Below the pieces are notes generated by a model. It saw only the letters and a list, made by a program, of their open reading frames with translations. It had not been told where the DNA came from and made no database searches. The translations under genes and the position numbers were made by a program. From sequence record PV660458: a DNA stretch of 42,378 nt; one strand, written 5' to 3'. The stretch comes from Escherichia phage LF82-23. Of the stretch, positions 14,919-25,589 are shown one piece after another; positions within the stretch are counted from its first letter, which is position 1; each line of letters starts with the position of its first letter.

Positions 14919-15591
14919 TGCCGAAGTCAAGCGCGTGTGGGCAGAGGATATCTGCCGTCTGCTGCAATCCGAAGAACTGAACTTCGTGGTTGCCGGGGGA
15001 GGGGCAAGGGATACCGCGCTGGGTGTTGAGCCGAAGGACTACGACATTGTGGTCTTCGGTTGGGGCGGCGACCTGAGCCGTGTGGCTGGCCGACTGGACT
15101 GGCTGGACTCCAGACTGGAGGACTATGCCGAGCAGCACGGGCTGGCGTATGAGTACATGCCGAGCTATCACGATGCGGCAGAGGGTGGCGACTTTGGTTC
15201 CCGACTGTACGGGGTGTTCAAGATTGGCCCGGTCGATATCATCATCAGTAAGTGTGGCTGCTGGTCACAGGTGCTGAATGAGTTTGACTTCAACCTGAAC
15301 CAGTTCTACTTCCCGTCCAGCATCCCTCGCTACTCCGGCCAGTACAGCCGTGACCCCGGTGAGTTCATGGCTTATCCGTACGAGCCGAACCTGACCGCCG
15401 CCGATGTGCAGTGGTATCCGGCGCTGGCCAGTCTGGTTGAAAGCTACGACGACCTGCTGACTCTCCGTGTCTGCCGACCGGATGCAAGCCTGAGTCGTTA
15501 TGCCTACATGCTGGAGAAGCACGAGCGGCTGCTGCCGTCCATTCAGGAGTACGTGAACAATAAGCCTGACCACTTAGGTGGCCAAGCATAG
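14908..15591 (+). CDS. Pol-beta superfamily nucleotidyltransferase, CCA-adding/poly(A) polymerase head-domain-like (minimal, 227 aa)
   Basis: Motif NFVVAGGGARDTALGVEPKDYDIVVFG matches the class-II tRNA nucleotidyltransferase signature GGxVRDxxLGxxxKDxD (compare E. coli CCA enzyme [25 protein letters not shown], from memory). Confidence 0.6.
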   Translation: MTSNAEVKRVWAEDICRLLQSEELNFVVAGGGARDTALGVEPKDYDIVVFGWGGDLSRVAGRLDWLDSRLEDYAEQHGLAYEYMPSYHDAAEGGDFGSRLYGVFKIGPVDIIISKCGCWSQVLNEFDFNLNQFYFPSSIPRYSGQYSRDPGEFMAYPYEPNLTAADVQWYPALASLVESYDDLLTLRVCRPDASLSRYAYMLEKHERLLPSIQEYVNNKPDHLGGQA

Positions 15592-15601
15592 CGGAGGACT
15601 G

Positions 15602-18067
15602 ATGGCAATTAGAGCACAGGTGATTGACGTTGAGACCGAGAACCATGAGTGGTATGGGGAGCTGGCATCGCCGCGCTGCCCGGATAACTATGTGGTTATG
15701 CAGGGTCAGCGTGACTGTGTGCTGACCAAGGATGGCTGGGTGTTCTACGAGCGCGAGGAATATCGGTACAGTTCGAGGGAGGATTGGTTGCAGAACAAGA
15801 GCCTGCACCTACATCCCGACACGAACATTCTGGTAGCCCACAACGCGCCGTATGAATTGAGCTGGTGGTTCGAGCATTACGGTGACGAGTTCATTGCCTT
15901 CCTCAAACGAGGTGGCCGTGTATTCTGTACCGCGTATGCTGAGTATCTGCTGACGCATCAACAATCCCAGTACCCATCCTTGAACGAGACAGCACCGAAG
16001 TATGGCGGTACTCACAAGGTGGATGCAGTCAAGGCGATGTGGGAGTCAGGCTACCTGACCAGCCAGATTGACCCTGAGCTGCTGAGCGAGTATCTGTCCG
16101 GGCCGTCCGGCGATATTGAGAACACGACCAAGCTGTTCGTTGGTCAGTGGGCAGAGCTGACGAAGCAGGGTATGTTGCCGATGGCACTGACCCGGTTCGA
16201 GGGTATGCTCATGTGGGCGTACATGATGCACGCTGGTCTGCATGTTGACCGCGAGGTTGCCGAGCGCAACCGCCGTGAGTTGCAGGATGCAATCAGTGGG
16301 CTGACTGATACACTGCTGAGTTACCTGCCAGCCGACATGCCGAAGGAGGCGCGTGAGCAGTTCAAGTTCACGTCAGCTTATCACATGAGCGCGTTCGTGT
16401 TCGGCGGCGTGATGAAGTACAAGGCGCGAGTCGAGCGCCGGGATGGGGATGGCAATCTCATTTACGTGAAGGTGGATGCGCCACTGTTCAAGCGAGGCAA
16501 GGACAAGTGGGTCAAGCATACCAGTGAGTGTGAGTGGGATGACGAGACCGGGCTATGGTATGACCCGGTTGAGAAGGTACACCAGACCATCTACTCCAGC
16601 GGGAAGAACAAGGGTGCGCCTAAGTTCGAGAAGCTGGCGACGGATGAAGTGGATACCAAGTGGGGTGAGGTGCTGTTCCGTATGCCGGGCCTCCTGCGTG
16701 TGCAGGATAAACGAGCGAAGGAGATTGCAGACAACCTCGAATGGGAAGACCCGAAGCGACCGGGTGAATACCTGCGGCGCACGGGTGACTGGGTTGGTAA
16801 GCGCAGGCTTGCCGATGGCAGTCCGGTATTCAGTACGGCGGGTGAGGTGCTGGACATTCTGGCAGCTCGTAAGATTCCCGGCGTGGTGGAGATTGCCGAC
16901 CGAGCCAAGGCACAGAAAGACCTCGGCACTTACTACCTGAGCGAGACGTTCGATGAAGAAGGGAACGTGACTGGCCAGTCGGGGATGATGCAGTTCATCC
17001 AGCCGGACAGTATCGTACACCACACCATCAACATGACCGCGACGGAGACGACGCGCTTATCATCGGCGCGACCTAACAGTCAGAACTTGCCACGTAAAGG
17101 TACGAGTAAAGTTAAGCAGATGTTCACCTCACGCTTTGGTGAGGGTGGCCGCATCGTTGAGGCTGACTACTCGGCACTGGAAGTGGTGGGGCTGGCCGGG
17201 TTCAGCAAGGATAAGAACCTGATTCGTGCATTGCTCGACGGTATCGACATGCACTGTATGCGTCTGTCAGCTCAGCTCAACGAGCCATACGAGGACGTGC
17301 TTAAGAAGTGCAAGGATGAATCCCATCCTGACCATGCACGATACAGTCAGATGCGTACTGACATTAAGCCGAAGGCGTTCTCATATCAGTATGGTGCAAC
17401 AGCGCGAGGCATTGCGTACTCGACTGGTTGCTCTGAGGAAGAAGCTCAAGCGTTCATCGACAACGAGAAGGGTCTGTTCCCGGAAGTTGAAGAATGGTTC
17501 GACTCGGTTATCTTCCCAGCCGTAGAGAAAAGTGGACAGAGCAATGTGTTCAAGGAGCAGGACGAGAACGGACGGTGGCAGGTGTATCGCCGTGGTCACT
17601 TCCGGTCGCCGGGTGGAACTTGTTATTCATTCCGTCAGTATGAGAAATGGAACAAGGCGGCGCGTGCTCACCTGATGGAATACAAACCAACTCAGATGCG
17701 TAACTATCCGATTCAGGGTGAGACCGCATTTTGGGTACAGGGAATCGGTGGCCTGCTGTTCCGCTGGCTGCTATCGAACGACTTCTTTGGTGGGCGTGTG
17801 GTTCCCATCAACCAAGTGCATGACGCATTCTATTTCGACATTGCACCTGACTGCCCCCACGAGTTCTTCGTTGGACTCAAGGCAATCATGGAAAGCATCC
17901 CGGAATACTACAACCACGTATGGCCAGAGTATAACCTGACAGTGCCGTTCCCGGCAGAGGTGGAAGCAGGGCCAAGCATGTACGAGAAGCACCACGTAGA
18001 GACGACAGCCGATGAAGTGCTGGAGTTTAAGAGACAATTCCTGACGAGTAAGGGTATCGCATTATGA
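15602..18067 (+). CDS. DNA polymerase, family A (T7 gp5-like)
   Basis: Motif A DYSALEVV, motif B RTDIKPKAFSYQYGA, motif C VHDAFYF; N-terminal exonuclease D-x-E (DVETE). Start chosen at ATG 15602 (GGAGG 4 nt upstream); ORF track begins at GTG 15578. Confidence 0.85.
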   Translation: MAIRAQVIDVETENHEWYGELASPRCPDNYVVMQGQRDCVLTKDGWVFYEREEYRYSSREDWLQNKSLHLHPDTNILVAHNAPYELSWWFEHYGDEFIAFLKRGGRVFCTAYAEYLLTHQQSQYPSLNETAPKYGGTHKVDAVKAMWESGYLTSQIDPELLSEYLSGPSGDIENTTKLFVGQWAELTKQGMLPMALTRFEGMLMWAYMMHAGLHVDREVAERNRRELQDAISGLTDTLLSYLPADMPKEAREQFKFTSAYHMSAFVFGGVMKYKARVERRDGDGNLIYVKVDAPLFKRGKDKWVKHTSECEWDDETGLWYDPVEKVHQTIYSSGKNKGAPKFEKLATDEVDTKWGEVLFRMPGLLRVQDKRAKEIADNLEWEDPKRPGEYLRRTGDWVGKRRLADGSPVFSTAGEVLDILAARKIPGVVEIADRAKAQKDLGTYYLSETFDEEGNVTGQSGMMQFIQPDSIVHHTINMTATETTRLSSARPNSQNLPRKGTSKVKQMFTSRFGEGGRIVEADYSALEVVGLAGFSKDKNLIRALLDGIDMHCMRLSAQLNEPYEDVLKKCKDESHPDHARYSQMRTDIKPKAFSYQYGATARGIAYSTGCSEEEAQAFIDNEKGLFPEVEEWFDSVIFPAVEKSGQSNVFKEQDENGRWQVYRRGHFRSPGGTCYSFRQYEKWNKAARAHLMEYKPTQMRNYPIQGETAFWVQGIGGLLFRWLLSNDFFGGRVVPINQVHDAFYFDIAPDCPHEFFVGLKAIMESIPEYYNHVWPEYNLTVPFPAEVEAGPSMYEKHHVETTADEVLEFKRQFLTSKGIAL

Positions 18068-18963
18068 CCGCATCTGTATTGAACCGCATGAACTCCATCG
18101 TCGAACAGTATGTTGACGAGGAAGAACTTGACTTTAACGAAGCCACGTCTGGTGGTGGTAAGCTGCTGCCGGAAGGTAAAGCGCTGGCACGTCTGGTTGG
18201 CTACATTGAAGTGGGGCCGAGCGTAACCAAGCAGGCACCGGACAAGCCGCCTGTCAATAAGTTCTTCCTCCAGTTCGCGCTGTGGGGCAAGGCCAAGAAC
18301 GGCGAGACTTACCATGAAGTTGTCAATGGTAAGATGGTGCCGGGCAAGGTGCGCACGCAGTTCATCGCTGTGAAGAAAGACCTGAACAGCAAGTCCGGCG
18401 CTTACAAACTGTTCAAGCGTATGAACCCGGACAAGACTGCGAAGCACTTCGCGCAGCTTCTGAACCACACCTTCATCGTTCCGATTATCCACAACGAATC
18501 GGGCGAGGGTGAGAACAAGAAGGTGTACGCCAACATCGACCTTGAGAACATCATGCTCGCGGTTGACCCGGTGACTGACCAGCCGTACCCGGTGCCGGAA
18601 GTCGAAGACGAGACGCTGTTCAAGCTGTTCCTGTGGAACCGTCCGACCAAGGAAGACTGGGAATCCCTGTACATCGAAGGCAAGAACGACGATGGCAAAT
18701 CCAAGAACTGGATTCAGGACAAGCTGCTGGAGTCTCCTGAGTTCCCCGGCTCTCCGCTTGACCTGCTGCTGAATGGCGCTGGCGCTGGCTCGGCAATCGC
18801 TGAGCTGCCGGAGCTGGGTGACGTGGGCCAGCCGGAGGAAGTGGCTGAGGTTAAGCAGGAAGTGCAGGAGCTGGCGACGGCGGGTGCGGCTGACAAGTCG
18901 GCAGCGTCCAAGCCTGAGCCGGACGTGACTGGCGATGCTGACTTCGGCCTGCCGAGTTTGTAA
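18064..18963 (+). CDS. hypothetical protein with acidic C-terminal tail, possible ssDNA-binding protein
   Basis: ATGA overlap with polymerase stop; acidic C-terminus with terminal aromatic (GDADFGLPSL), reminiscent of T7 gp2.5 tail; weak inference. Confidence 0.35.
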   Translation: MTASVLNRMNSIVEQYVDEEELDFNEATSGGGKLLPEGKALARLVGYIEVGPSVTKQAPDKPPVNKFFLQFALWGKAKNGETYHEVVNGKMVPGKVRTQFIAVKKDLNSKSGAYKLFKRMNPDKTAKHFAQLLNHTFIVPIIHNESGEGENKKVYANIDLENIMLAVDPVTDQPYPVPEVEDETLFKLFLWNRPTKEDWESLYIEGKNDDGKSKNWIQDKLLESPEFPGSPLDLLLNGAGAGSAIAELPELGDVGQPEEVAEVKQEVQELATAGAADKSAASKPEPDVTGDADFGLPSL

Positions 18964-18998: not shown

Positions 18999-19196
18999 AT
19001 GCGAGAGTTAGAGCCGGGCGAGGTTATCGTGTACGACGAGCCTCGCGACATGTGCATGGTAATCAAAAGCCGCAGCGAGCGAGTTGAAATGAGCTACGAC
19101 ATGTTCTTCACTTTGAAGAAGATGATTGAGGACATGCTGATGGAGAGAGTGAATGAGCAGATTGAGACGCTTGCTTCACAATGCCGAGGAACTTGA
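18999..19196 (+). CDS. hypothetical small protein (about 65 aa)
   Basis: ORF-track start 18981 is inside the palindrome; ATG 18999 follows GGAGGG; start uncertain. Confidence 0.35.
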   Translation: MRELEPGEVIVYDEPRDMCMVIKSRSERVEMSYDMFFTLKKMIEDMLMERVNEQIETLASQCRGT

Positions 19197-20127
19197 TGAC
19201 CAGTTTGATGGTTACGTGTCTGGTCGTATTCTGCTGTGCGATGCTGACTCGACAGTCTACGTCGCGTCGGCCACGACCAGTAACATCGAGACAGCGAAGA
19301 CGCGCTTCTGCTCAGGGGTGCTGACCGCTAAGTTCCTCGCCAATGCTCAGTCAGTTCGTATTGAGCTGACGGCGGCAGAGTGTCGCAAGGCTGGTCGATA
19401 CAAGCTGCGCGGCGTGAAGCCGTATCAGGGCAACCGGGATAAGAAGTCGAAGCCCGGTCTGGTTGAGCCGTTGCGTAAGGCGATTGGCCGAAACATGTTC
19501 AACGTTCCCGATGGTGAGGATTGGTACGTCCACCTGAACTTTGAGTTCGAGGCAGACGATACCTTAATCATGGATGCGTGGACGATTGGGCTGGAGGATG
19601 CTGTCATCTACAGCGCGGATAAAGACCTGCGCTGCTGGCCGGGCAGGTTCCTCGACCCGTACGAGAACAAGGTGCTGGAGCCATGCAAAGGTATCGGCAG
19701 TCTGTGGTGGCACGAGACCAAGAGTGACAAGTCATTGATTGGTCATGGGCCTATCTTCTTTTGGGCGCAGATGCTGATGGGCGATACCGCCGACAACATC
19801 TCTGGTGTCAAGAAGATTGGTAAGCAGACAGCTTACAACATGCTGGTCGATTATCAGGAGACTGATGACGAGTCGGCTGTGGCTGAGTTCGTGCTCCGTG
19901 AATACATGGTGCGTGACCAGAACCCATGGCCAGAAGCAGTGGCGCTGTGGCTGTACCGCACGCCGACCTACTCATTCGCAGCCCACCTGAATACGCTGAC
20001 CTTGAGCAAGGAGCTGCGTGTCTGGCTGCACAAGAAATTGAATGAGGAATGGTATGCGGAAAGTGACTGGCGCGACCTTGTTGCAGATGCGGAAGAATGC
20101 GATGGGCTGTCCTTGCCCACTCTGTAA
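19153..20127 (+). CDS. 5'-3' exonuclease (FEN-family, T7 gp6-like)
   Basis: Motif GDTADNISGVKKIGKQTA (H3TH) and acidic clusters FEADD / SADKD. Confidence 0.75.
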   Translation: MSRLRRLLHNAEELDDQFDGYVSGRILLCDADSTVYVASATTSNIETAKTRFCSGVLTAKFLANAQSVRIELTAAECRKAGRYKLRGVKPYQGNRDKKSKPGLVEPLRKAIGRNMFNVPDGEDWYVHLNFEFEADDTLIMDAWTIGLEDAVIYSADKDLRCWPGRFLDPYENKVLEPCKGIGSLWWHETKSDKSLIGHGPIFFWAQMLMGDTADNISGVKKIGKQTAYNMLVDYQETDDESAVAEFVLREYMVRDQNPWPEAVALWLYRTPTYSFAAHLNTLTLSKELRVWLHKKLNEEWYAESDWRDLVADAEECDGLSLPTL

Positions 20128-20434
20128 CGAACCGATGGTAGACCTCAAGCTCATGGTTGTTGACCACGACCATGTGAGTGGGGAGATTCGCGGTGTCATC
20201 TGCCGCTGGTGTAATGCTCAGCTCGGCAAGGTAGAGAACTCTGCCAACCGAGCGAAGCGCCAGCGCACAGTTGACGACTGGCTGGACAGCGCCATCGAGT
20301 GGCGACGTAAGCAACACACTGGTCTGATGTACCCAACGCACAAGACCGAGGCAGAGAAGAAAGCGGCGACAGCCGAGAGACGTAAGAAGGCGGCAGCCGC
20401 GAAAGCGCGAGCCTTAATCACTAAGGGGAAATGA
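20102..20434 (+). CDS. endonuclease VII-family (Holliday-junction resolvase-like) protein
   Basis: Motif CPCPLC...VVDHDHVSGEIRGVICRWCNAQLG; start chosen at ATG 20102 (GGAAG upstream); the ORF extends upstream to 20042, overlapping the exonuclease. Confidence 0.65.
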   Translation: MGCPCPLCNEPMVDLKLMVVDHDHVSGEIRGVICRWCNAQLGKVENSANRAKRQRTVDDWLDSAIEWRRKQHTGLMYPTHKTEAEKKAATAERRKKAAAAKARALITKGK

Positions 20435-21558
20435 TGACCAAGTTAACTAATCACCAACTCAAAGAAGACATTGCCGAAGGGCTTGGCACCAAGGCCATTG
20501 CTGAGAAGCACGACATGACCGAGAGCGCCATTCGATACCGGAAGCGCCAGCTTGCCAAGAGCGGCTGGAGTCCTGAGCACGACATGACGAAGGAGGTGCC
20601 GGAGCCGTATGCGGTGAAGGGTACGTCCACGCTGTACGATAAGGACGGCAACGTTGTCATGCAGTGGGTGAAGACAGCACTCGACCGTGAGCAGGAGCTG
20701 GCGCTGCTGCAAGAAGCTGTCGATGCTATTAGCGAGAGCATCACCCCGGAAGCTGCCCGACCGTACGCCGGGGGCGCGGCACCTGCTGAGCTGCTGAACC
20801 TGTTCGTGCTGACTGACTACCACCTCGGTATGCTGGCATGGGCAGAGGAAACTGGTGACGACTGGGATATGAAGATTGCGGAAGACCTGCTGGTTAAGTG
20901 GTTCTCGGCAGCGATTGCCAGTGCGCCGCCAGCACAGGTTGCCATCTTCGGCCAGCTCGGTGACTTCCTGCACTGGGATGGGTTGGATGCAGTAACGCCA
21001 TCGAGTGGTCATGTGCTTGATGCTGACACGAGATTCCAGAAGCTGGTGCGTGTGGCTATCCGGGCGCAGCGCCGCATCATTGGTATGCTGCTGGATAAGT
21101 TCCCGCAGGTTCACGTGGTGTGTGCCGAGGGCAACCACGACATGGCCAGCTCAATCTGGATGCGCGAGCTGCTGCATGTCCTGTACGCCGACGAGCCGCG
21201 TGTCACCGTTGACCGCAGCCCTGACCCGTACTACTGCTATGAGCATGGCGAGACGGCGCTGTTCTTCCACCATGGTCACAAGCGTAAGGCAGAACAACTG
21301 GAGACTGTACTGGTCGCCAAGTTCCGCGAAGTGTATGGCCGAACCAAACATGCGTATGCACACGTTGGCCACCTGCATCACAAGAAGGTACTGGAGTCTG
21401 GTGTCATGGTTGTCGAGCAGCACCGCACGCTGGCGGCGAAGGATGCCTATGCCTCTCGTGGTGGTTGGCTGAGTGAGCGCAGCGCGAGCGTGATTACTTA
21501 TCATGCCCGGTACGGTGAGGTCGCACGATTCACCATTAGCCCGGAGATGTTAGAGTGA
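20431..21558 (+). CDS. calcineurin-like metallophosphoesterase with N-terminal HTH domain
   Basis: Ordered motifs TDYH, GDFLHWDG, GNHD, HHGH, GHLH fit the metallophosphatase signature D-x-H / GD / GNHD / H / GH-x-H; N-terminal KAIAEKHDMTESAIRYRKRQL looks HTH-like. Confidence 0.65.
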   Translation: MMTKLTNHQLKEDIAEGLGTKAIAEKHDMTESAIRYRKRQLAKSGWSPEHDMTKEVPEPYAVKGTSTLYDKDGNVVMQWVKTALDREQELALLQEAVDAISESITPEAARPYAGGAAPAELLNLFVLTDYHLGMLAWAEETGDDWDMKIAEDLLVKWFSAAIASAPPAQVAIFGQLGDFLHWDGLDAVTPSSGHVLDADTRFQKLVRVAIRAQRRIIGMLLDKFPQVHVVCAEGNHDMASSIWMRELLHVLYADEPRVTVDRSPDPYYCYEHGETALFFHHGHKRKAEQLETVLVAKFREVYGRTKHAYAHVGHLHHKKVLESGVMVVEQHRTLAAKDAYASRGGWLSERSASVITYHARYGEVARFTISPEMLE

Positions 21559-21779
21559 CGAGAACACTGTACCAAGAAGATGTGGTGCAGCTCAAAGAGG
21601 ATGGCCTTTCCATTGAGTGGGAGGCCAACACTCAGGTCGAGCTGTATAAGGATGGCACCGTCTGCATTTCGCAGGACGGTGAGGAAGTCTGGTTGCCTTG
21701 GGCATATGTCCGGGATATTATTTTCGCTCTTGAGGAAGCACACGATGCACATGAAAGACACCGTAGTAGTAGACCTTGA
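21555..21779 (+). CDS. hypothetical protein (74 aa), GTG start
   Basis: GTG overlapping upstream stop (GTGA) with GGAG 10 nt upstream; overlaps next gene by about 35 nt; uncertain. Confidence 0.35.
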   Translation: MTRTLYQEDVVQLKEDGLSIEWEANTQVELYKDGTVCISQDGEEVWLPWAYVRDIIFALEEAHDAHERHRSSRP

Positions 21780-22272
21780 CGGCACGCTGGCTGATGGCCG
21801 TTGGCGTTTACACCTGCTGCCTCCACCGGAGCGTCGGCACCTTGATGAAGCGTGGGCCGAGTTCAACTTGGCTGGCGCTGACGACCCTGCGTTTCAGGAC
21901 ACGATTGATATTGTGAACGCTCTGGCCCTCACGTATCGCATTATCATCCTGACCGGACGCGGAGCCGTGGCCCGTGAAGTAACCGAGCAGTGGCTTGACG
22001 AAGCTGGTGTGGTTTACGACAAGCTAATCATGAGAGAGATTGGCGACTGCCGTAAGGACACGGAGATGAAGCTGGCGGCGCTGGAGGATATCGGCATCGA
22101 GAACATCGTCTGTGCTTTCGATGACCTGCCCCACATCGTGGACTTTATGCGTGGCCTCGGCATCACGGTTTATGAAGTGACCCGGTATGAGGACAATCAC
22201 GAGTATGTTCACGCAAATGCTAAATACGATGGCGCTGATTCTAAGGTCGATGGAGGTAAGGCGAATGGGTAA
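21745..22272 (+). CDS. HAD-superfamily phosphatase (DxDGT motif)
   Basis: N-terminal VVVDLDGTLADG (HAD motif I); GAGGAAG 6 nt upstream of ATG 21745; ORF-track start 21580 rejected. Confidence 0.6.
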   Translation: MHMKDTVVVDLDGTLADGRWRLHLLPPPERRHLDEAWAEFNLAGADDPAFQDTIDIVNALALTYRIIILTGRGAVAREVTEQWLDEAGVVYDKLIMREIGDCRKDTEMKLAALEDIGIENIVCAFDDLPHIVDFMRGLGITVYEVTRYEDNHEYVHANAKYDGADSKVDGGKANG

Positions 22273-22843
22273 GAAAGGTCAGAAGTTTATCTTAGACCCG
22301 ACACGCAACTGGGGCACTGGTACGCTGCTGAGCGACATTGCTGAGCAAGGTATCATCCTGACGTATGACGAGCCGTACGATGTGCCGAACGACAGCCGTG
22401 ACTACTACACCTGCGTCAAGGATGGCACGACCCACCTGCTGGTGTTGGAACCCTACGAAGTGAAGGAGGTTGAAATGTCCTTTATCCCGAACGACCCGTA
22501 TGACCCTTCCAGTGATGTTGAGGTGGCCGTGGTCAAGAGCGCCGGGCCGGGCGGTATGAAGTTCGACGGCGGCAAGCCCCGCATGTCTCTGCTGTTCGAC
22601 GGCTGCCCAAATGCACTGGAGGCTGTGGCCAGCGTGCTGACCTTCGGCGCTGAGAAGTATGCAGCTCACTCGTGGCAGACTGTACCGGAAGGTGAGGAAC
22701 GCTACAAGTCAGCATTGCTCCGGCACCTGACGGCGGTGGGCAAGGGTGAGGAACTGGATAGCGAATCCAACCTGCATCATCTGGCGCACGCCGCGTGCAA
22801 TGCGCTGTTCATTCTGGAACTCGAATTAAGGAAACGTAAATGA
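22265..22843 (+). CDS. hypothetical protein, possible all-alpha NTP pyrophosphohydrolase (MazG-like / dATP-dGTP diphosphohydrolase-like) domain
   Basis: C-terminal KFDGGKPRMSLL...FGAEKYAAHSW...LLRHL...GEELDSESNLHHLAHAACNALFILE resembles that family as I recall it; GGAGG 8 nt upstream of ATG 22265. Confidence 0.35.
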   Translation: MGKKGQKFILDPTRNWGTGTLLSDIAEQGIILTYDEPYDVPNDSRDYYTCVKDGTTHLLVLEPYEVKEVEMSFIPNDPYDPSSDVEVAVVKSAGPGGMKFDGGKPRMSLLFDGCPNALEAVASVLTFGAEKYAAHSWQTVPEGEERYKSALLRHLTAVGKGEELDSESNLHHLAHAACNALFILELELRKRK

Positions 22844-23154
22844 GTCGTTATCAAAGAGCCGTTGACGACACGGTGGTTGACCATAAGGTGTGCGGTGCCT
22901 GCCACGGCAGCGGCACCTACCGTGGCATGTTGATTGGTGGGCAGGTAGTCCTGATGGATTGCGAAGCCTGCGGCGGTACGGGTACTAATGACCCGGCACT
23001 GCAACATTCTGTACTGAGTGACTTAGGCCAGCGCGTACAAGCGCAGCCGGGATATGACGAGCCAAGCAAGCCATCGTATGGTGTGGGTATCGTCGAGCAA
23101 TACGCCGAAGACGGCAAGCTGATTGAGCACCTGAGCAAACAAGTTAAGGAGTAG
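22840..23154 (+). CDS. zinc-ribbon protein with DnaJ-like CxxCxGxG repeats (104 aa)
   Basis: CGACHGSG and CEACGGTG motifs; ATGA overlap with upstream gene. Confidence 0.5.
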   Translation: MSRYQRAVDDTVVDHKVCGACHGSGTYRGMLIGGQVVLMDCEACGGTGTNDPALQHSVLSDLGQRVQAQPGYDEPSKPSYGVGIVEQYAEDGKLIEHLSKQVKE

Positions 23155-23156
23155 TC

Positions 23157-25589
23157 GTGGATTTACTTGCAGAGCAGATTCGACTTGAAGAAGAAGCGCG
23201 AGCCAGACACCGCGAGGGCTGGCTGGATAATATCAAAGAGGCGATGGCCAGTGGCCGCGCCGGGTCGGTGCCGTTGCTCCAGCGTATGATGGTTGAGGCT
23301 TATCCTCTGGTCGAAGCTGCGATGCAAGAAACCCTGAACGAAACGACCCGTGGGTATGGTGCGCAGTACCGGACGTACATGCGTGAGATTGGCACCAAAG
23401 CGTGTGCCTCTCTCGCACTGAGCATGGCGGTGTCCGGTGCTGCGTCGGAGCAGGCGGTACTCAGCCTGCTCAAGAGCATGGGCAAGGCACTGATGGCTGA
23501 GGTGGTGTACCTCCGGGCGAAGCAGACCGGGCCACAGCAGGCGGCGTACATGGAGCGCGTTAAGCAGGATGTGAAGAAGTCTCGCTCGAAGTCAGCGAAC
23601 CACGTCTACAACAAAGCGCGTGCGTCGGCGGCGAACGTTGGGGTGGAGATTGATGTGCTGCCGCAGCGTGCGCTGATTACCATTGGCAAGCTGATGATGA
23701 AGTGCGTCGAGCCAACTGGTCTGGTGTCCACGATTCGCGTCGGCGGCAACCAGCGGCAGCGCGGTACGGCACACTTTGCACTGCATGAGGATGTGCTGGC
23801 TACGATGAACGACTGGCTGGACATGCCGCGTGCTGATGGCATGTGCTGCCCACCGCTGATTATCCCGCCGAAGCAGATTGCGCCGAACGGTCGCAGCGGT
23901 ATGTGGCATTCGGATGGGCAGGCGGCGATGTACCGGGTCATGAGTCGCATGAACCACAAAGGGTATCGTGCGTTGAACGTTGACCCGACCCCCGTTATAG
24001 AGCCGTGTATGATGCTCAGCAGCGTTCCGTACCGAGTTAACCCAATGGTACTGGAGTTCCTGCGAACGAACCGTACAGGCGTTATGGGGCTGCCTGTGCC
24101 GCCTCGTGAGCCTACACTTCCGTTTACCATCCCCGCTGGTGTGAGCTTCGCGCAGTACATCAGCAAGTTCCCACCAGAGATGCAGCAGCAGATGGACGCT
24201 GAGGCTCATGAGTACAAGGTGAAGACTCGCTTGTATTACAATGAGTTGCGTAAGTTCACATCGCAGATGCTGGCGCTGAACGGTGCAGTCAAAGAAGCAG
24301 ACAGGTACGCCCAGTATGATAGGATTTATCTCCCGACTTACGCCGATACGCGGGGCCGAATTTATTATTCTTCGACCCTTAACCCTCAGTCTATCGACGC
24401 GGTGCGAGCGCTGCTCGAACTTGCTGAACCAGTGGCTCTCGGAAGTGAGGGGCTGTTCTGGCTCAAGGTTCATGTTGCGAATTGCTTCGGCTACGACGCA
24501 ACCGACTTCGATGACCGGGCGGCGTGGACGGACAAAACACTCCCCCGACTACGTGAGGCGTGCCGTCTTCCAGAGGCATTTGATTCGTTCTGGTCAGAGG
24601 CCGATAGCCCTATCTCAGCGTGGGCTGCATCTGTTGAACTCATTCGAGCTATCGACAGCGGAAGTCCTGAGACTTATCCCTGCCGAGTGGTTACGCAATG
24701 GGATGCTACATGTTCAGGTCTCCAACACCTCAGCGCAATGCTACGAGATGAAGTTGGGGGTGCTGCTGTCAATCTTATCAATAGCGTGGGGCGAAAGGCA
24801 GACATATATCTCAAGACGGCAGCAGCGGCGATGCAGGCTCTTGAAGATAGTGAAGCGCAGTCACCGACGCAGATGGGTACGTGGCTTGTTTCAATCGGCA
24901 TTGTACGGGCGATGGCTAAGAAACCAGTGATGACGTACGTGTACGGGGCAACCCGGCACGGGATGGTGGACTACTACTGCCTGTACCTGCGTGAGAACCG
25001 GGTCAAGCTACCGGACGGCAAGAGCCTGCTGGAGTGTGCGCAGTTCATCGCAGAGTTCATGTGGAATGCAATCCCTCGCGTTGTGCCGAAGGCGGCAGAG
25101 CTGATGGCGTGGTTGCAGGCTATCGCGGTGGAGGCGGCAGCCAACGGCGAGTACGTGGAAATCATTGCACCGTCAGGGTTGCGGGTGGTTAACCTGTACC
25201 AAGCTAGCAAGGAGACGATGCTCAACAACATCAACCTCATGGGTATCCACAGCATTAAGCTGCGCGAGTATCTGGACAAGCCGGACGGCAGGAAGTGTGC
25301 CGCTGCGATTGCTCCGAATTTCGTACACGCCATGGATGCCAGCCACATGATGAAGGTGCTGTGGGAGATGTGGAATAACGGGGTGTACATGGTATCCATC
25401 CACGATTCGTTCGGGGTGGCGGCTGCACATGCCGGGCTACTTCACAAGGTCATTCGTGAAAAGTTCGTGCAGATGTACGAGCAACATGACCCAATTCAAC
25501 AACTTGCTGTACGATACAATGCTGTTGCACCTGAACGTGGCAATCTGGATATCCAGCTTGTGAAACAATCAAGCAAGTTTTTCTGCTAA
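23157..25589 (+). CDS. single-subunit DNA-directed RNA polymerase (T7-like)
   Basis: [25 protein letters not shown] and VSIHDSFG match T7 RNAP catalytic segments ([20 protein letters not shown], HDSFG); GTG start with AAGGAG 5 nt upstream. Confidence 0.9.
   Translation: [810 protein letters not shown]

What the first reader, a model, noticed from the sequence alone, without database searches (positions are those of the whole stretch)
20431..21558. HTH-fused calcineurin-like metallophosphoesterase next to the endonuclease VII gene
All five metallophosphatase motifs occur in the right order (DYH, GDFLHWDG, GNHD, HHGH, GHLH) behind an N-terminal HTH-like segment. GNHD is typical of Mre11/SbcD nucleases and of cyclic-nucleotide phosphodiesterases. 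Possible roles include DNA-end processing, 2',3'-cyclic phosphate/3'-phosphate removal in RNA repair, or degradation of cyclic (oligo)nucleotide immune signals. None is established.
Basis: partly seen in the sequence, partly recalled or inferred. Interest (0 to 1): 0.6.

Follow-up and report, generated by a model that had tools for sequence, protein, structure and literature searches.

The report
Phage DNA-binding metallophosphoesterase, probable nuclease
This is a real, intact phage gene for a metal-dependent phosphoesterase fused to a DNA-binding domain; the family is common in phages but has no biochemistry, and it most likely cuts DNA, because a relative in another coliphage is toxic to E. 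coli and is the gene that phage mutates to escape the DRT7 defence.

Summary
ORF 20431-21558 (+) encodes 375 aa, with all five metallophosphoesterase motifs at residues 129, 177, 234, 280 and 313, behind a three-helix HTH. The window is a Bonnellvirus-type Autographiviridae coliphage. Near-identical GenBank genes are already annotated "phosphoesterase".

The family (PHROG 704) is very large: 2043 phage records and 5681 clusters at 50% identity. It includes T1 and prophages of many Proteobacteria. The metal-ligand residues are invariant down to 30% identity.

A 41%-identical full-length homologue, Bas01_0050, is toxic in E. coli and is mutated in DRT7 escape phages (preprint). T5 A1 has the same HTH-plus-phosphoesterase layout and degrades host DNA, but profile comparison shows it is not the same family.

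Best reading (about 0.5): a stand-alone, HTH-tethered, Mn-dependent DNA nuclease that attacks host DNA, possibly feeding nucleotide salvage. No biochemistry exists. Cyclic-nucleotide and RNA-repair roles are less likely. This is a new member of a catalogued, uncharacterised family, of moderate interest.

The parts
20431..21558 (+). HTH-metallophosphoesterase gene (375 aa; the likelier start is the second ATG at 20434, giving 374 aa)
   Evidence: ORF. PHROG 704 E 3.3e-146. 99.7% identical proteins in GenBank coliphages, annotated 'phosphoesterase'. ATGA overlap with the endonuclease VII stop and GTGA overlap with the next ORF's start.
20443..20565 (+). N-terminal three-helix HTH (residues about 5-45)
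   Evidence: Model helices at 7-15, 20-26 and 31-43; 10-residue blocks 11-40 average pLDDT 90-93. Pfam HTH_23, HTH_28, GerE, HTH_8 and others match homologues. Family profile against GerE 1fse, E 0.018.
20602..20733 (+). Conserved beta-hairpin plus helix (residues about 58-101) between the HTH and the catalytic domain
   Evidence: Model strands 61-69 and 75-83, helix 86-101. G64, S66, G73, W79 and K81 are invariant in A1. Retained in the Campylobacter phage homologue, which lacks the HTH (alignment starts at residue 64). Some homologues match the profile in two stretches, and in P0125 and P0167 the second stretch reads as an extra copy of this hairpin.
20785..21555 (+). Metallophosphoesterase catalytic domain (residues about 119-375)
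20815..20823 (+). Motif I, D129-Y-H131
   Evidence: Translation. D129 and H131 are invariant in 56 sequences down to 30% identity.
20959..20982 (+). Motif II, G177-D178-F-L-H181-W-D183-G
   Evidence: Translation. G177 and D178 are invariant; H181 and D183 are conserved in at least 90%. The GD-x-x-H spacing is that of Mre11 GDLFH (own knowledge).
21130..21141 (+). Motif III, G234-N235-H236-D237
   Evidence: Translation. N235 and H236 are invariant.
21268..21279 (+). Motif IV, H280-H281-G-H283
   Evidence: Translation. H281 is the invariant residue.
21367..21378 (+). Motif V, G313-H314-L-H316
   Evidence: Translation. G313 and H316 are invariant; H314 is conserved in at least 90%.
20102..20434 (+). 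Endonuclease VII gene immediately upstream. The ORF opens at 20042; 20102 is the likely start by analogy with aldrigsur.
   Evidence: Pfam Endonuclease_7 E 3.6e-13. PHROG 423. aldrigsur annotation.
19153..20127 (+). 5'-3' exonuclease gene in the same gene string
   Evidence: PHROG 107 E 5.4e-58; Pfam 5_3_exonuc.
21745..22272 (+). HAD-type phosphatase (the phosphatase domain of polynucleotide kinase/phosphatase, with no kinase domain). It recurs as the downstream neighbour of the family in several phage backbones.
   Evidence: Pfam HAD_PNKP E 1.4e-14. 48% identical to the gene just downstream of the homologue in a Klebsiella T1-like phage. The phosphoesterase is followed by this HAD gene in 10 of 80 viral loci.
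22265..22843 (+). Protein with the N-terminal domain of dATP/dGTP diphosphohydrolases, two genes further downstream
   Evidence: Pfam dGTP_diPhyd_N E 5.5e-33. Relatives lie within four genes of the family in 8 (+4) of 82 dereplicated lineages.

Best explanation
The gene encodes an active binuclear-metal phosphodiesterase (probably Mn2+-dependent). Its catalytic core is of the Mre11/SbcD/PolD-DP1 nuclease type. An N-terminal HTH and a conserved beta-hairpin hold it on DNA, so it works as a stand-alone DNA nuclease without a Rad50/SbcC partner. It is expressed with the DNA-metabolism genes (DNA polymerase, 5'-3' exonuclease, endonuclease VII, then this gene, then a HAD phosphatase and a dNTP diphosphohydrolase-like gene). 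It most likely attacks host DNA. That would be toxic to the cell, shut down host functions and could supply nucleotides. Its activity would also be what the DRT7 reverse-transcriptase defence depends on to stop T1-like phages. What is shown: the domain architecture, the conservation of catalytic residues, the fold, the family's distribution, and homology to Bas01_0050. What is taken from the literature for a homologue: toxicity, dispensability and DRT7 escape. What is inferred: DNA as the substrate, host DNA as the target, and any salvage role.
For: (1) The metal-ligand and catalytic residues D129, H131, D178, N235, H236, H281 and H316 are invariant in 56 sequences down to 30% identity. The motifs are present in 77-80 of 80 viral loci. 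This points to an enzyme under selection.
(2) An HTH is fused at the N-terminus across the family. This points to a nucleic-acid-associated substrate.
(4) H181 lies three residues after the motif II Asp and is conserved in at least 90% of sequences. This is the Mre11 GDLFH arrangement rather than the usual GDxxDR (own knowledge of Mre11).
(5) Bas01_0050 of phage Bas1 is a full-length homologue: 41% identity, E 2e-102. bioRxiv 10.64898/2026.02.16.706125 reports that DRT7 escape mutants of Bas1 carry missense or frameshift mutations in it, and that its expression is toxic in E. coli.
(6) Functional analogues exist. T5 A1 has an N-terminal DNA-binding domain plus a metallophosphatase, and is necessary and sufficient for host DNA degradation. 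The mycobacteriophage A10ZJ24 Gp48 phosphoesterase disrupts host genomic DNA.
(7) Context. The gene is translationally coupled in a string with the exonuclease and endonuclease VII. It recurs next to a HAD phosphatase followed by either a dNMP kinase or a dNTP diphosphohydrolase-like gene, in Bonnellvirus-like, PP99-like, Klebsiella T1-like and about-54%-identical siphovirus-type loci.
Confidence: 0.5

Rival explanations
1. The enzyme processes the phage's own DNA. It would act like Mre11, trimming ends, opening hairpins or resecting breaks, to support recombination-dependent replication, concatemer formation or repair. It would not target host DNA.
For: It shows the same nuclease-clade structural similarity. 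It lies beside the DNA polymerase, 5'-3' exonuclease and the Holliday-junction resolvase endonuclease VII. In a Campylobacter phage the homologue sits between a DNA ligase and a Holliday-junction resolvase and is annotated 'putative recombination endonuclease'. PHROG 704 carries the label 'DNA repair exonuclease'.
Against: Frameshift mutants of Bas01_0050 are viable, and the LIMEzero orthologue reads as frameshifted at motif V, so the function is dispensable. Expression alone is toxic to uninfected E. coli. There is no Rad50/SbcC-like partner. In T1, Jerseyvirus and many prophage loci the gene lies near lysis or late-regulator genes rather than recombination genes.
Confidence: 0.2
2. The enzyme is a small-molecule nucleotide phosphodiesterase or pyrophosphatase. 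It would hydrolyse cyclic (oligo)nucleotide immune signals, NAD+, dNTPs or similar, and the HTH would serve only for autoregulation or localisation.
Against: A conserved DNA-binding HTH plus hairpin is hard to explain for a soluble-metabolite enzyme. No PADLOC defence-family match. Toxicity in E. coli is not expected of a pure immune-signal degrader. In my recollection, the known phage enzymes that degrade such signals use other folds (own knowledge).
Confidence: 0.15
3. The enzyme heals nucleic-acid ends. It would act as a 2',3'-cyclic phosphodiesterase or 3'-phosphatase, like the metallophosphoesterase domain of Clostridium thermocellum Pnkp, and work with the downstream HAD phosphatase to repair nuclease-damaged tRNA or DNA.
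For: The gene recurs next to a HAD phosphatase of the polynucleotide kinase/phosphatase type in several phage backbones. Metallophosphoesterase domains are used for end-healing in bacterial Pnkp (own knowledge).
Against: No polynucleotide kinase domain was found in the eight neighbouring genes scanned, and no RNA ligase is annotated in the near-identical phage. Two 3'-phosphatases in tandem would be redundant. HAD adjacency holds in only a minority of lineages. End-healing does not explain the toxicity.
Confidence: 0.07
4. The protein is a regulator. It would be a transcription factor whose phosphoesterase domain senses or modifies a ligand, or a protein phosphatase like lambda NinI.
For: It has an HTH. 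In prophage and environmental loci the gene lies downstream of NinB/NinG-like genes and just upstream of a small protein that I read as Q-like (those names are my reading of the sequences and were not checked against Pfam). That is roughly where lambda carries NinI (own knowledge).
Confidence: 0.05

Closest known systems
PHROG 704 / T1 ST16 / Bas01_0050 family (annotated 'DNA repair exonuclease', 'phosphoesterase', 'calcineurin-like phosphoesterase')
   Same: Full-length homology: PHROG 704 E 3.3e-146, T1 ST16 38% identity, Bas01_0050 41% identity. Same HTH, hairpin and phosphoesterase architecture, same motifs. This is the family the gene belongs to.
   Different: Nothing structural. The family has no biochemical characterisation. 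The only functional data are the DRT7-escape and toxicity observations for Bas01_0050.
Phage T5 A1 (pre-early protein, PHROG 1745)
   Same: N-terminal DNA-binding/HTH region plus a C-terminal metallophosphatase with all motifs. A1 is toxic, necessary and sufficient for host DNA degradation, and escape mutations from retron Eco2 map to it. This parallels Bas01_0050 and DRT7.
   Different: A1 is 556 aa against 375 aa. It falls in a different PHROG. hhalign aligns only about 23 residues around motif III, at 19-33% probability. A1 is essential for T5 and needed for second-step DNA transfer, whereas the Bas1 homologue is dispensable. It is an analogue, or at most a superfamily-level relative.
Mre11 / SbcD nucleases (and PolD DP1)
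   Different: No sequence-level match. No capping domain was detected. No Rad50/SbcC ATPase partner in the genome. It has an N-terminal HTH that Mre11/SbcD lack. Identity is 13-17%.
Mycobacteriophage cluster A metallophosphoesterase (A10ZJ24 Gp48)
   Same: A phage-encoded metallophosphoesterase with five motifs and phosphodiesterase activity. It is toxic, disrupts host genomic DNA and is dispensable in a permissive host.
   Different: Motif I starts at residue 10, so there is no room for an N-terminal HTH. Homology to this family beyond the superfamily level was not tested here.
Lambda NinI (lambda protein phosphatase)
   Same: A metallophosphoesterase encoded by a phage, located before the late regulator, as in many prophage loci of this family (lambda gene order from own knowledge).
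   Different: NinI is a PPP-type protein phosphatase with GDxxDRG and GNHE signatures. It is about 220 aa and has no HTH (own knowledge). The motifs differ here.

Membership tests
Calcineurin-like metallophosphoesterase superfamily | Five ordered motifs: D-x-H, GD-x-x-D/H, GNH[D/E], H, GH-x-H | tested here: met
   All five are present at residues 129, 177, 234, 280 and 313. 0 of 20,000 shuffles match. Core residues are invariant in 56 homologues.
Calcineurin-like metallophosphoesterase superfamily | The beta-sandwich metallophosphoesterase fold | tested here: met
Calcineurin-like metallophosphoesterase superfamily | Pfam PF00149 above the gathering score | tested here: inconclusive
   This protein scores 15.6 bits against a cutoff of 21.5, E 0.023. 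23 of 40 homologues match at E <= 0.05, best 2.7e-5.
PHROG 704 (T1 ST16 / Bas01_0050 family) | Full-length profile match and shared architecture | tested here: met
   E 3.3e-146 over residues 3-374 against profile positions 2-389 of 390. Full-length BLASTP to T1 and Bas1 proteins.
Mre11/SbcD nuclease family | Nuclease-type catalytic core with His three residues after the motif II Asp | tested here: met
Mre11/SbcD nuclease family | C-terminal capping / DNA-binding domain (Pfam SbcD_C, Mre11_DNA_bind) | tested here: not met
   No such Pfam match even at E <= 10. Only about 60 residues follow motif V.
Mre11/SbcD nuclease family | Partner Rad50/SbcC ATPase encoded nearby | tested here: not met
   The ORFs of 200 aa or more in the window line up in size and order with the annotated replication, packaging and structural genes of the near-identical phage aldrigsur, none of which is an SbcC/Rad50-like ATPase. 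No such neighbour appears in 82 lineages.
Mre11/SbcD nuclease family | Mn2+-dependent exo/endonuclease activity on DNA | not testable with these tools
   Needs enzyme assays.
T5 A1 family (PHROG 1745) | Profile-level homology over the catalytic domain | tested here: not met
   hhalign probability 19-33%, aligning only 21-23 columns around motif III. The two proteins fall in different PHROGs.
T5 A1 family (PHROG 1745) | Host DNA degradation on expression | not testable with these tools
   Only toxicity of the homologue Bas01_0050 is reported. DNA content was not measured.
PPP-type protein phosphatases (lambda NinI) | GDxxDRG and GNHE signatures | tested here: not met
Class III cyclic-nucleotide phosphodiesterases (CpdA/Rv0805/GpdQ) | Closest structural or sequence affinity to this subfamily; cNMP hydrolysis | tested here: inconclusive
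Known anti-phage defence protein families (PADLOC) | Profile match | tested here: not met
   No match at E <= 0.1 for this protein, Bas01_0050 or T5 A1.

The most novel reading that the evidence does not exclude
The HTH-phosphoesterase family is a stand-alone, HTH-guided Mre11-type nuclease that needs no Rad50/SbcC. It would be the counterpart of T5 A1 in T1-like, Jersey-like and many podoviral and temperate phages. It would damage or degrade the host chromosome, or overload or antagonise RecBCD. That perturbation, not the protein itself, would be the signal that DRT7-type reverse-transcriptase defences, and possibly RecBCD-surveillance retrons, read. Circumstantially, both DRT7 (whose lambda escape mutations are in gam, and which Gam activates) and retron Sen3 (triggered by RecBCD inhibition) restrict lambda and Bas01.
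Probability: 0.3. Interest if true: 0.65.

Novelty: new member of a known kind. Interest (0 to 1): 0.4.

Why it matters
The family is among the more widespread phage enzymes with no assigned function: 2043 GenBank phage records and about 5700 clusters at 50% identity, spanning T1-like, Jersey-like and Autographiviridae phages, Campylobacter myoviruses and many prophages. If it is a host-directed nuclease, it would explain how these phages shut down or recycle the host chromosome. It would give a mechanistic handle on what DRT7 senses. It would also show that the combination of a DNA-binding domain and a metallophosphoesterase nuclease arose or spread more than once in phages (T5 A1, this family, the mycobacteriophage enzymes). 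Practically, it is a toxic gene to bear in mind when engineering or cloning therapeutic coliphages.

Tried and rejected
- Sequence searches gave nothing specific. These were Pfam at E <= 10, NCBIfam and PDB by phmmer and two profiles. The only signals were GerE for the HTH (E 0.018) and P. putida 'Nuclease MPE' at motif III (E 1.3, not significant).
- PADLOC gave no match.
- Foldseek against the PDB gave a generic metallophosphoesterase ranking with low TM scores, which does not discriminate subfamilies.
- I tested whether T5 A1 is the same family, using a single sequence and a 32-sequence alignment against two alignments of this family. Only motif III aligned, so homology beyond the superfamily is rejected.
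- I tested whether the downstream HAD phosphatase is a T5 Dmp homologue, which would have made an A1-plus-Dmp parallel. There was no significant similarity (E 0.057), so this is rejected.
- I looked for a universal gene partner in 139 loci (82 dereplicated lineages). None exists.
- The genome scan with the diverse alignment A3 failed because no stretch was conserved enough. I repeated it with A1.
- Literature searches for T1 host DNA degradation, SECphi27 and other escape-mutant reports found nothing further on this family.
- I recall from 1970s-80s T1 genetics that non-essential T1 functions are required for host chromosome breakdown. I could not verify this in the library, so it is not used as evidence.
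- The RNA-repair idea is set aside because the healing-and-sealing partners are missing.
Full report
**What the window is.** The window is essentially a complete genome of a phiKMV-like podovirus (Autographiviridae, genus Bonnellvirus). Proteins 99.5-99.7% identical to the one in question occur in Escherichia and Enterobacter phages of 41-42.5 kb. The 96%-identical gene of Escherichia phage aldrigsur (42,379 bp) is annotated 'phosphoesterase'. All genes around the finding are on the + strand in this order:
- DNA polymerase (15578-18067)
- a 299-aa PHROG 862 protein
- 5'-3' exonuclease (19153-20127)
- endonuclease VII (to 20434)
- the finding (20431-21558)
- a 74-aa ORF
- a HAD phosphatase of the polynucleotide kinase/phosphatase type (21745-22272)
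- a protein with the N-terminal domain of dATP/dGTP diphosphohydrolases (22265-22843)
- a 104-aa zinc-ribbon protein
- the phage RNA polymerase (23157-25589)

**The observation.** The ORF is real. Its start overlaps the endonuclease VII stop (ATGA) and its stop overlaps the start of the next ORF (GTGA), so the genes are tightly packed and probably translationally coupled. An ordered generic motif pattern was found in none of 20,000 shuffles.

The protein is too divergent for routine tools:
- Pfam Metallophos scores below threshold (E 0.023).
- NCBIfam finds nothing.
- PDB sequence searches find nothing.

Even so, PHROG 704 matches end to end at E 3.3e-146. Pfam Metallophos matches 23 of 40 homologues, and various HTH families match their N-termini.

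**Conservation.** In a 40-sequence alignment (56-95% identity) every motif residue is invariant. In a 56-sequence alignment reaching 30% identity (T1, Bas1, a Jerseyvirus, and Klebsiella, Vibrio and Campylobacter phages):
- D129, H131, G177, D178, N235, H236, H281, G313 and H316 remain invariant;
- H181, D183, D237 and H314 are conserved in at least 90%.

This is an enzyme under purifying selection.

**Size and spread of the family.**
- tblastn finds it in 2043 of 50,697 GenBank phage records: Escherichia 559, Klebsiella 468, Salmonella 373, Vibrio 254, Campylobacter 59 and others.
- A profile search of 1.84 billion cluster representatives gives 5681 clusters at E <= 1e-3 and 1579 at E <= 1e-30. 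Nearly all are 370-420 aa and match full length.
- It also lies in large chromosomal contigs of Pseudomonas, Stutzerimonas, Xanthomonadales, Bordetella, Paraburkholderia, Brevundimonas, Sphingomonas and others, presumably in prophages.

**Structure.** The AlphaFold2 model (pLDDT 78.7, pTM 0.71) shows three parts:
- a three-helix HTH (helices at residues 7-15, 20-26 and 31-43);
- a conserved beta-hairpin plus helix (residues 61-101);
- a metallophosphoesterase sandwich from about residue 120, with three low-confidence loops.

Against BFVD, the nearest viral structures outside the family are about-400-aa phage proteins, several auto-named 'DNA polymerase II small subunit'. At sequence level, motif I reads D-Y-H-L-G and motif II reads GD-F-L-H. 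The conserved His three residues after the Asp is the Mre11 arrangement (GDLFH), not the common GDxxDR. That comparison rests on my own knowledge of Mre11.

**Experimental leads from the literature.**
- A 2026 preprint on DRT7/UG10 reverse transcriptases reports that spontaneous Bas1 mutants escaping DRT7 carry missense or frameshift mutations in Bas01_0050, 'a putative nucleic acid-targeting phosphoesterase'. The gene could not be co-expressed with DRT7 because it is toxic in E. coli. The lambda escape mutations were in gam.
- I fetched Bas1 (MZ501051). Bas01_0050 is a full-length homologue of the window protein (41% identity, E 2e-102) in the same genomic position as T1 ST16 (38% identity). 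So at least one family member is dispensable, toxic and required for DRT7 to work.
- T5 A1 is described as a predicted metallophosphatase with an N-terminal DNA-binding domain. It is necessary and sufficient for host DNA degradation, and escape mutations from retron Eco2 map to it.
- A mycobacteriophage metallophosphoesterase, Gp48, disrupts host DNA.

**Is it T5 A1?** No. A1 homologues also carry HTH_23/HTH_38-type N-termini and all the catalytic motifs. But profile-profile comparison of a 32-sequence A1 alignment with either alignment of this family aligns only about 23 columns around motif III (E[GS]NHDxAxSxW[LM]), at 19-33% probability. The two fall in different PHROGs. They are analogues with the same domain layout, related at most at superfamily level.

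**Genomic context elsewhere.**
- In T1 and Bas1 the gene stands between small unknown genes and a homing endonuclease, just before the lysis cassette.
- In a Jerseyvirus it lies in a small island between tail genes.
- In a Campylobacter myovirus it lacks the HTH and lies between a DNA ligase and a Holliday-junction resolvase.
- In a Klebsiella T1-like phage it is followed by a HAD phosphatase 48% identical to the window's, then a dNMP kinase.
- Among the 80 best IMG/VR loci, 10 have the phosphoesterase followed by the HAD gene. Five continue with the dNTP diphosphohydrolase-like gene and five with a dNMP kinase.
- After dereplication to 82 lineages there is no universal partner. The commonest neighbour clusters, which I named by eye or by similarity to the window's genes and not by Pfam, look like lysozymes, dNTP diphosphohydrolase-like proteins, HNH endonucleases, a small Q-like protein, the HAD phosphatase, dNMP kinase and NinG-like proteins.

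The enzyme therefore works alone. It has a recurrent but not obligatory association with nucleotide-pool enzymes.

**Interpretation.** The best-supported mechanism is a stand-alone, HTH-tethered, metal-dependent DNA nuclease that acts on host DNA. This fits:
- the DNA-binding fusion;
- the nuclease-like core and the Mre11-type His;
- the toxicity and dispensability of the homologue;
- its role as the determinant of DRT7 sensitivity alongside lambda Gam;
- the functional precedents;
- the position among nucleases and nucleotide-salvage genes.

I put this at about 0.5. That the protein is an active HTH-fused metallophosphoesterase I put at 0.95 or higher. The rivals are:
- processing of the phage's own DNA (0.2);
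- a small-molecule nucleotide phosphodiesterase, including degradation of immune signals (0.15);
- end-healing with the HAD phosphatase (0.07);
- a regulator or protein phosphatase (0.05).

**Novelty and score.** The gene is an orthologue of already-deposited and annotated genes and belongs to a catalogued family (PHROG 704). It is a new member of a known, though functionally uncharacterised, kind. A specialist would not be surprised by the architecture. The value lies in the size of the family, the fresh genetic link to DRT7 and the parallel with T5 A1, all of which make the function directly testable. Interest is 0.4.

Noticed in passing
window 21555-21779 (+): A 74-aa ORF whose start overlaps the phosphoesterase stop (GTGA), with a GGAG ribosome-binding site upstream. 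It has a marginal Pfam match to the SH3-like integrase DNA-binding domain (IN_DBD_C, E 9.8e-5, 22 bits against a cutoff of 21). It is found in only 3 of 80 related loci, all close relatives.
   Followed up: partly
window 21745-22272 (+); L006:6044-6658: A HAD phosphatase of the polynucleotide kinase/phosphatase type with no kinase domain. A 48%-identical copy sits directly downstream of the homologue in a Klebsiella T1-like phage, followed there by a dNMP kinase. The phosphoesterase-HAD pair recurs in several unrelated phage backbones (10 of 80 loci). It is not related to T5 Dmp (E 0.057).
   Followed up: partly
window 22265-22843 (+): A protein with the N-terminal domain of dATP/dGTP diphosphohydrolases (Pfam dGTP_diPhyd_N, E 5.5e-33). 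Some PHROGs it matches carry the label 'endolysin; inhibits RNA polymerase', which looks like a propagated misannotation.
   Followed up: no
window 22840-23154 (+): A 104-aa CxxC zinc-ribbon protein directly upstream of the phage RNA polymerase gene. It matches PHROG 6060 'anti-termination protein Q-like' (E 1.5e-15) and, weakly, the DnaJ CXXCXGXG domain.
   Followed up: no
window 18064-18963 (+): A 299-aa protein between the DNA polymerase and the exonuclease (PHROG 862, unknown function, no Pfam match). It has a long acidic, low-complexity C-terminal tail ending ...GDADFGLPSL, reminiscent of the acidic tails of single-stranded DNA-binding proteins. Not tested.
   Followed up: no
L015:6001-7121 (Pantoea phage LIMEzero): The orthologue is split by a frameshift at about residues 314-320, exactly at motif V. 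It is either a natural pseudogene, which would fit dispensability, or a sequencing error.
   Followed up: partly
IMG/VR and bacterial-genome loci L016-L147: In many environmental and prophage loci the gene lies downstream of DnaB, NinB-like and NinG-like genes and just upstream of a small Q-like protein, lysis genes and the terminase. In my recollection of the lambda map, that is roughly where lambda carries the unrelated metallophosphoesterase NinI. The gene names are my reading of the sequences and were not checked against Pfam.
   Followed up: partly
literature: Two defences linked to RecBCD status both restrict lambda and Bas01. They are DRT7, whose lambda escape mutations are in gam, and retron Sen3, triggered by RecBCD inhibition. 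The Bas01 determinant for Sen3 is not reported. It may be the same HTH-phosphoesterase gene.
   Followed up: no
window 19153-20127 and 20042-20434 (+): The longest endonuclease VII ORF overlaps the exonuclease gene by 86 nt. The start used in aldrigsur corresponds to 20102, leaving a 26-nt overlap.
   Followed up: partly
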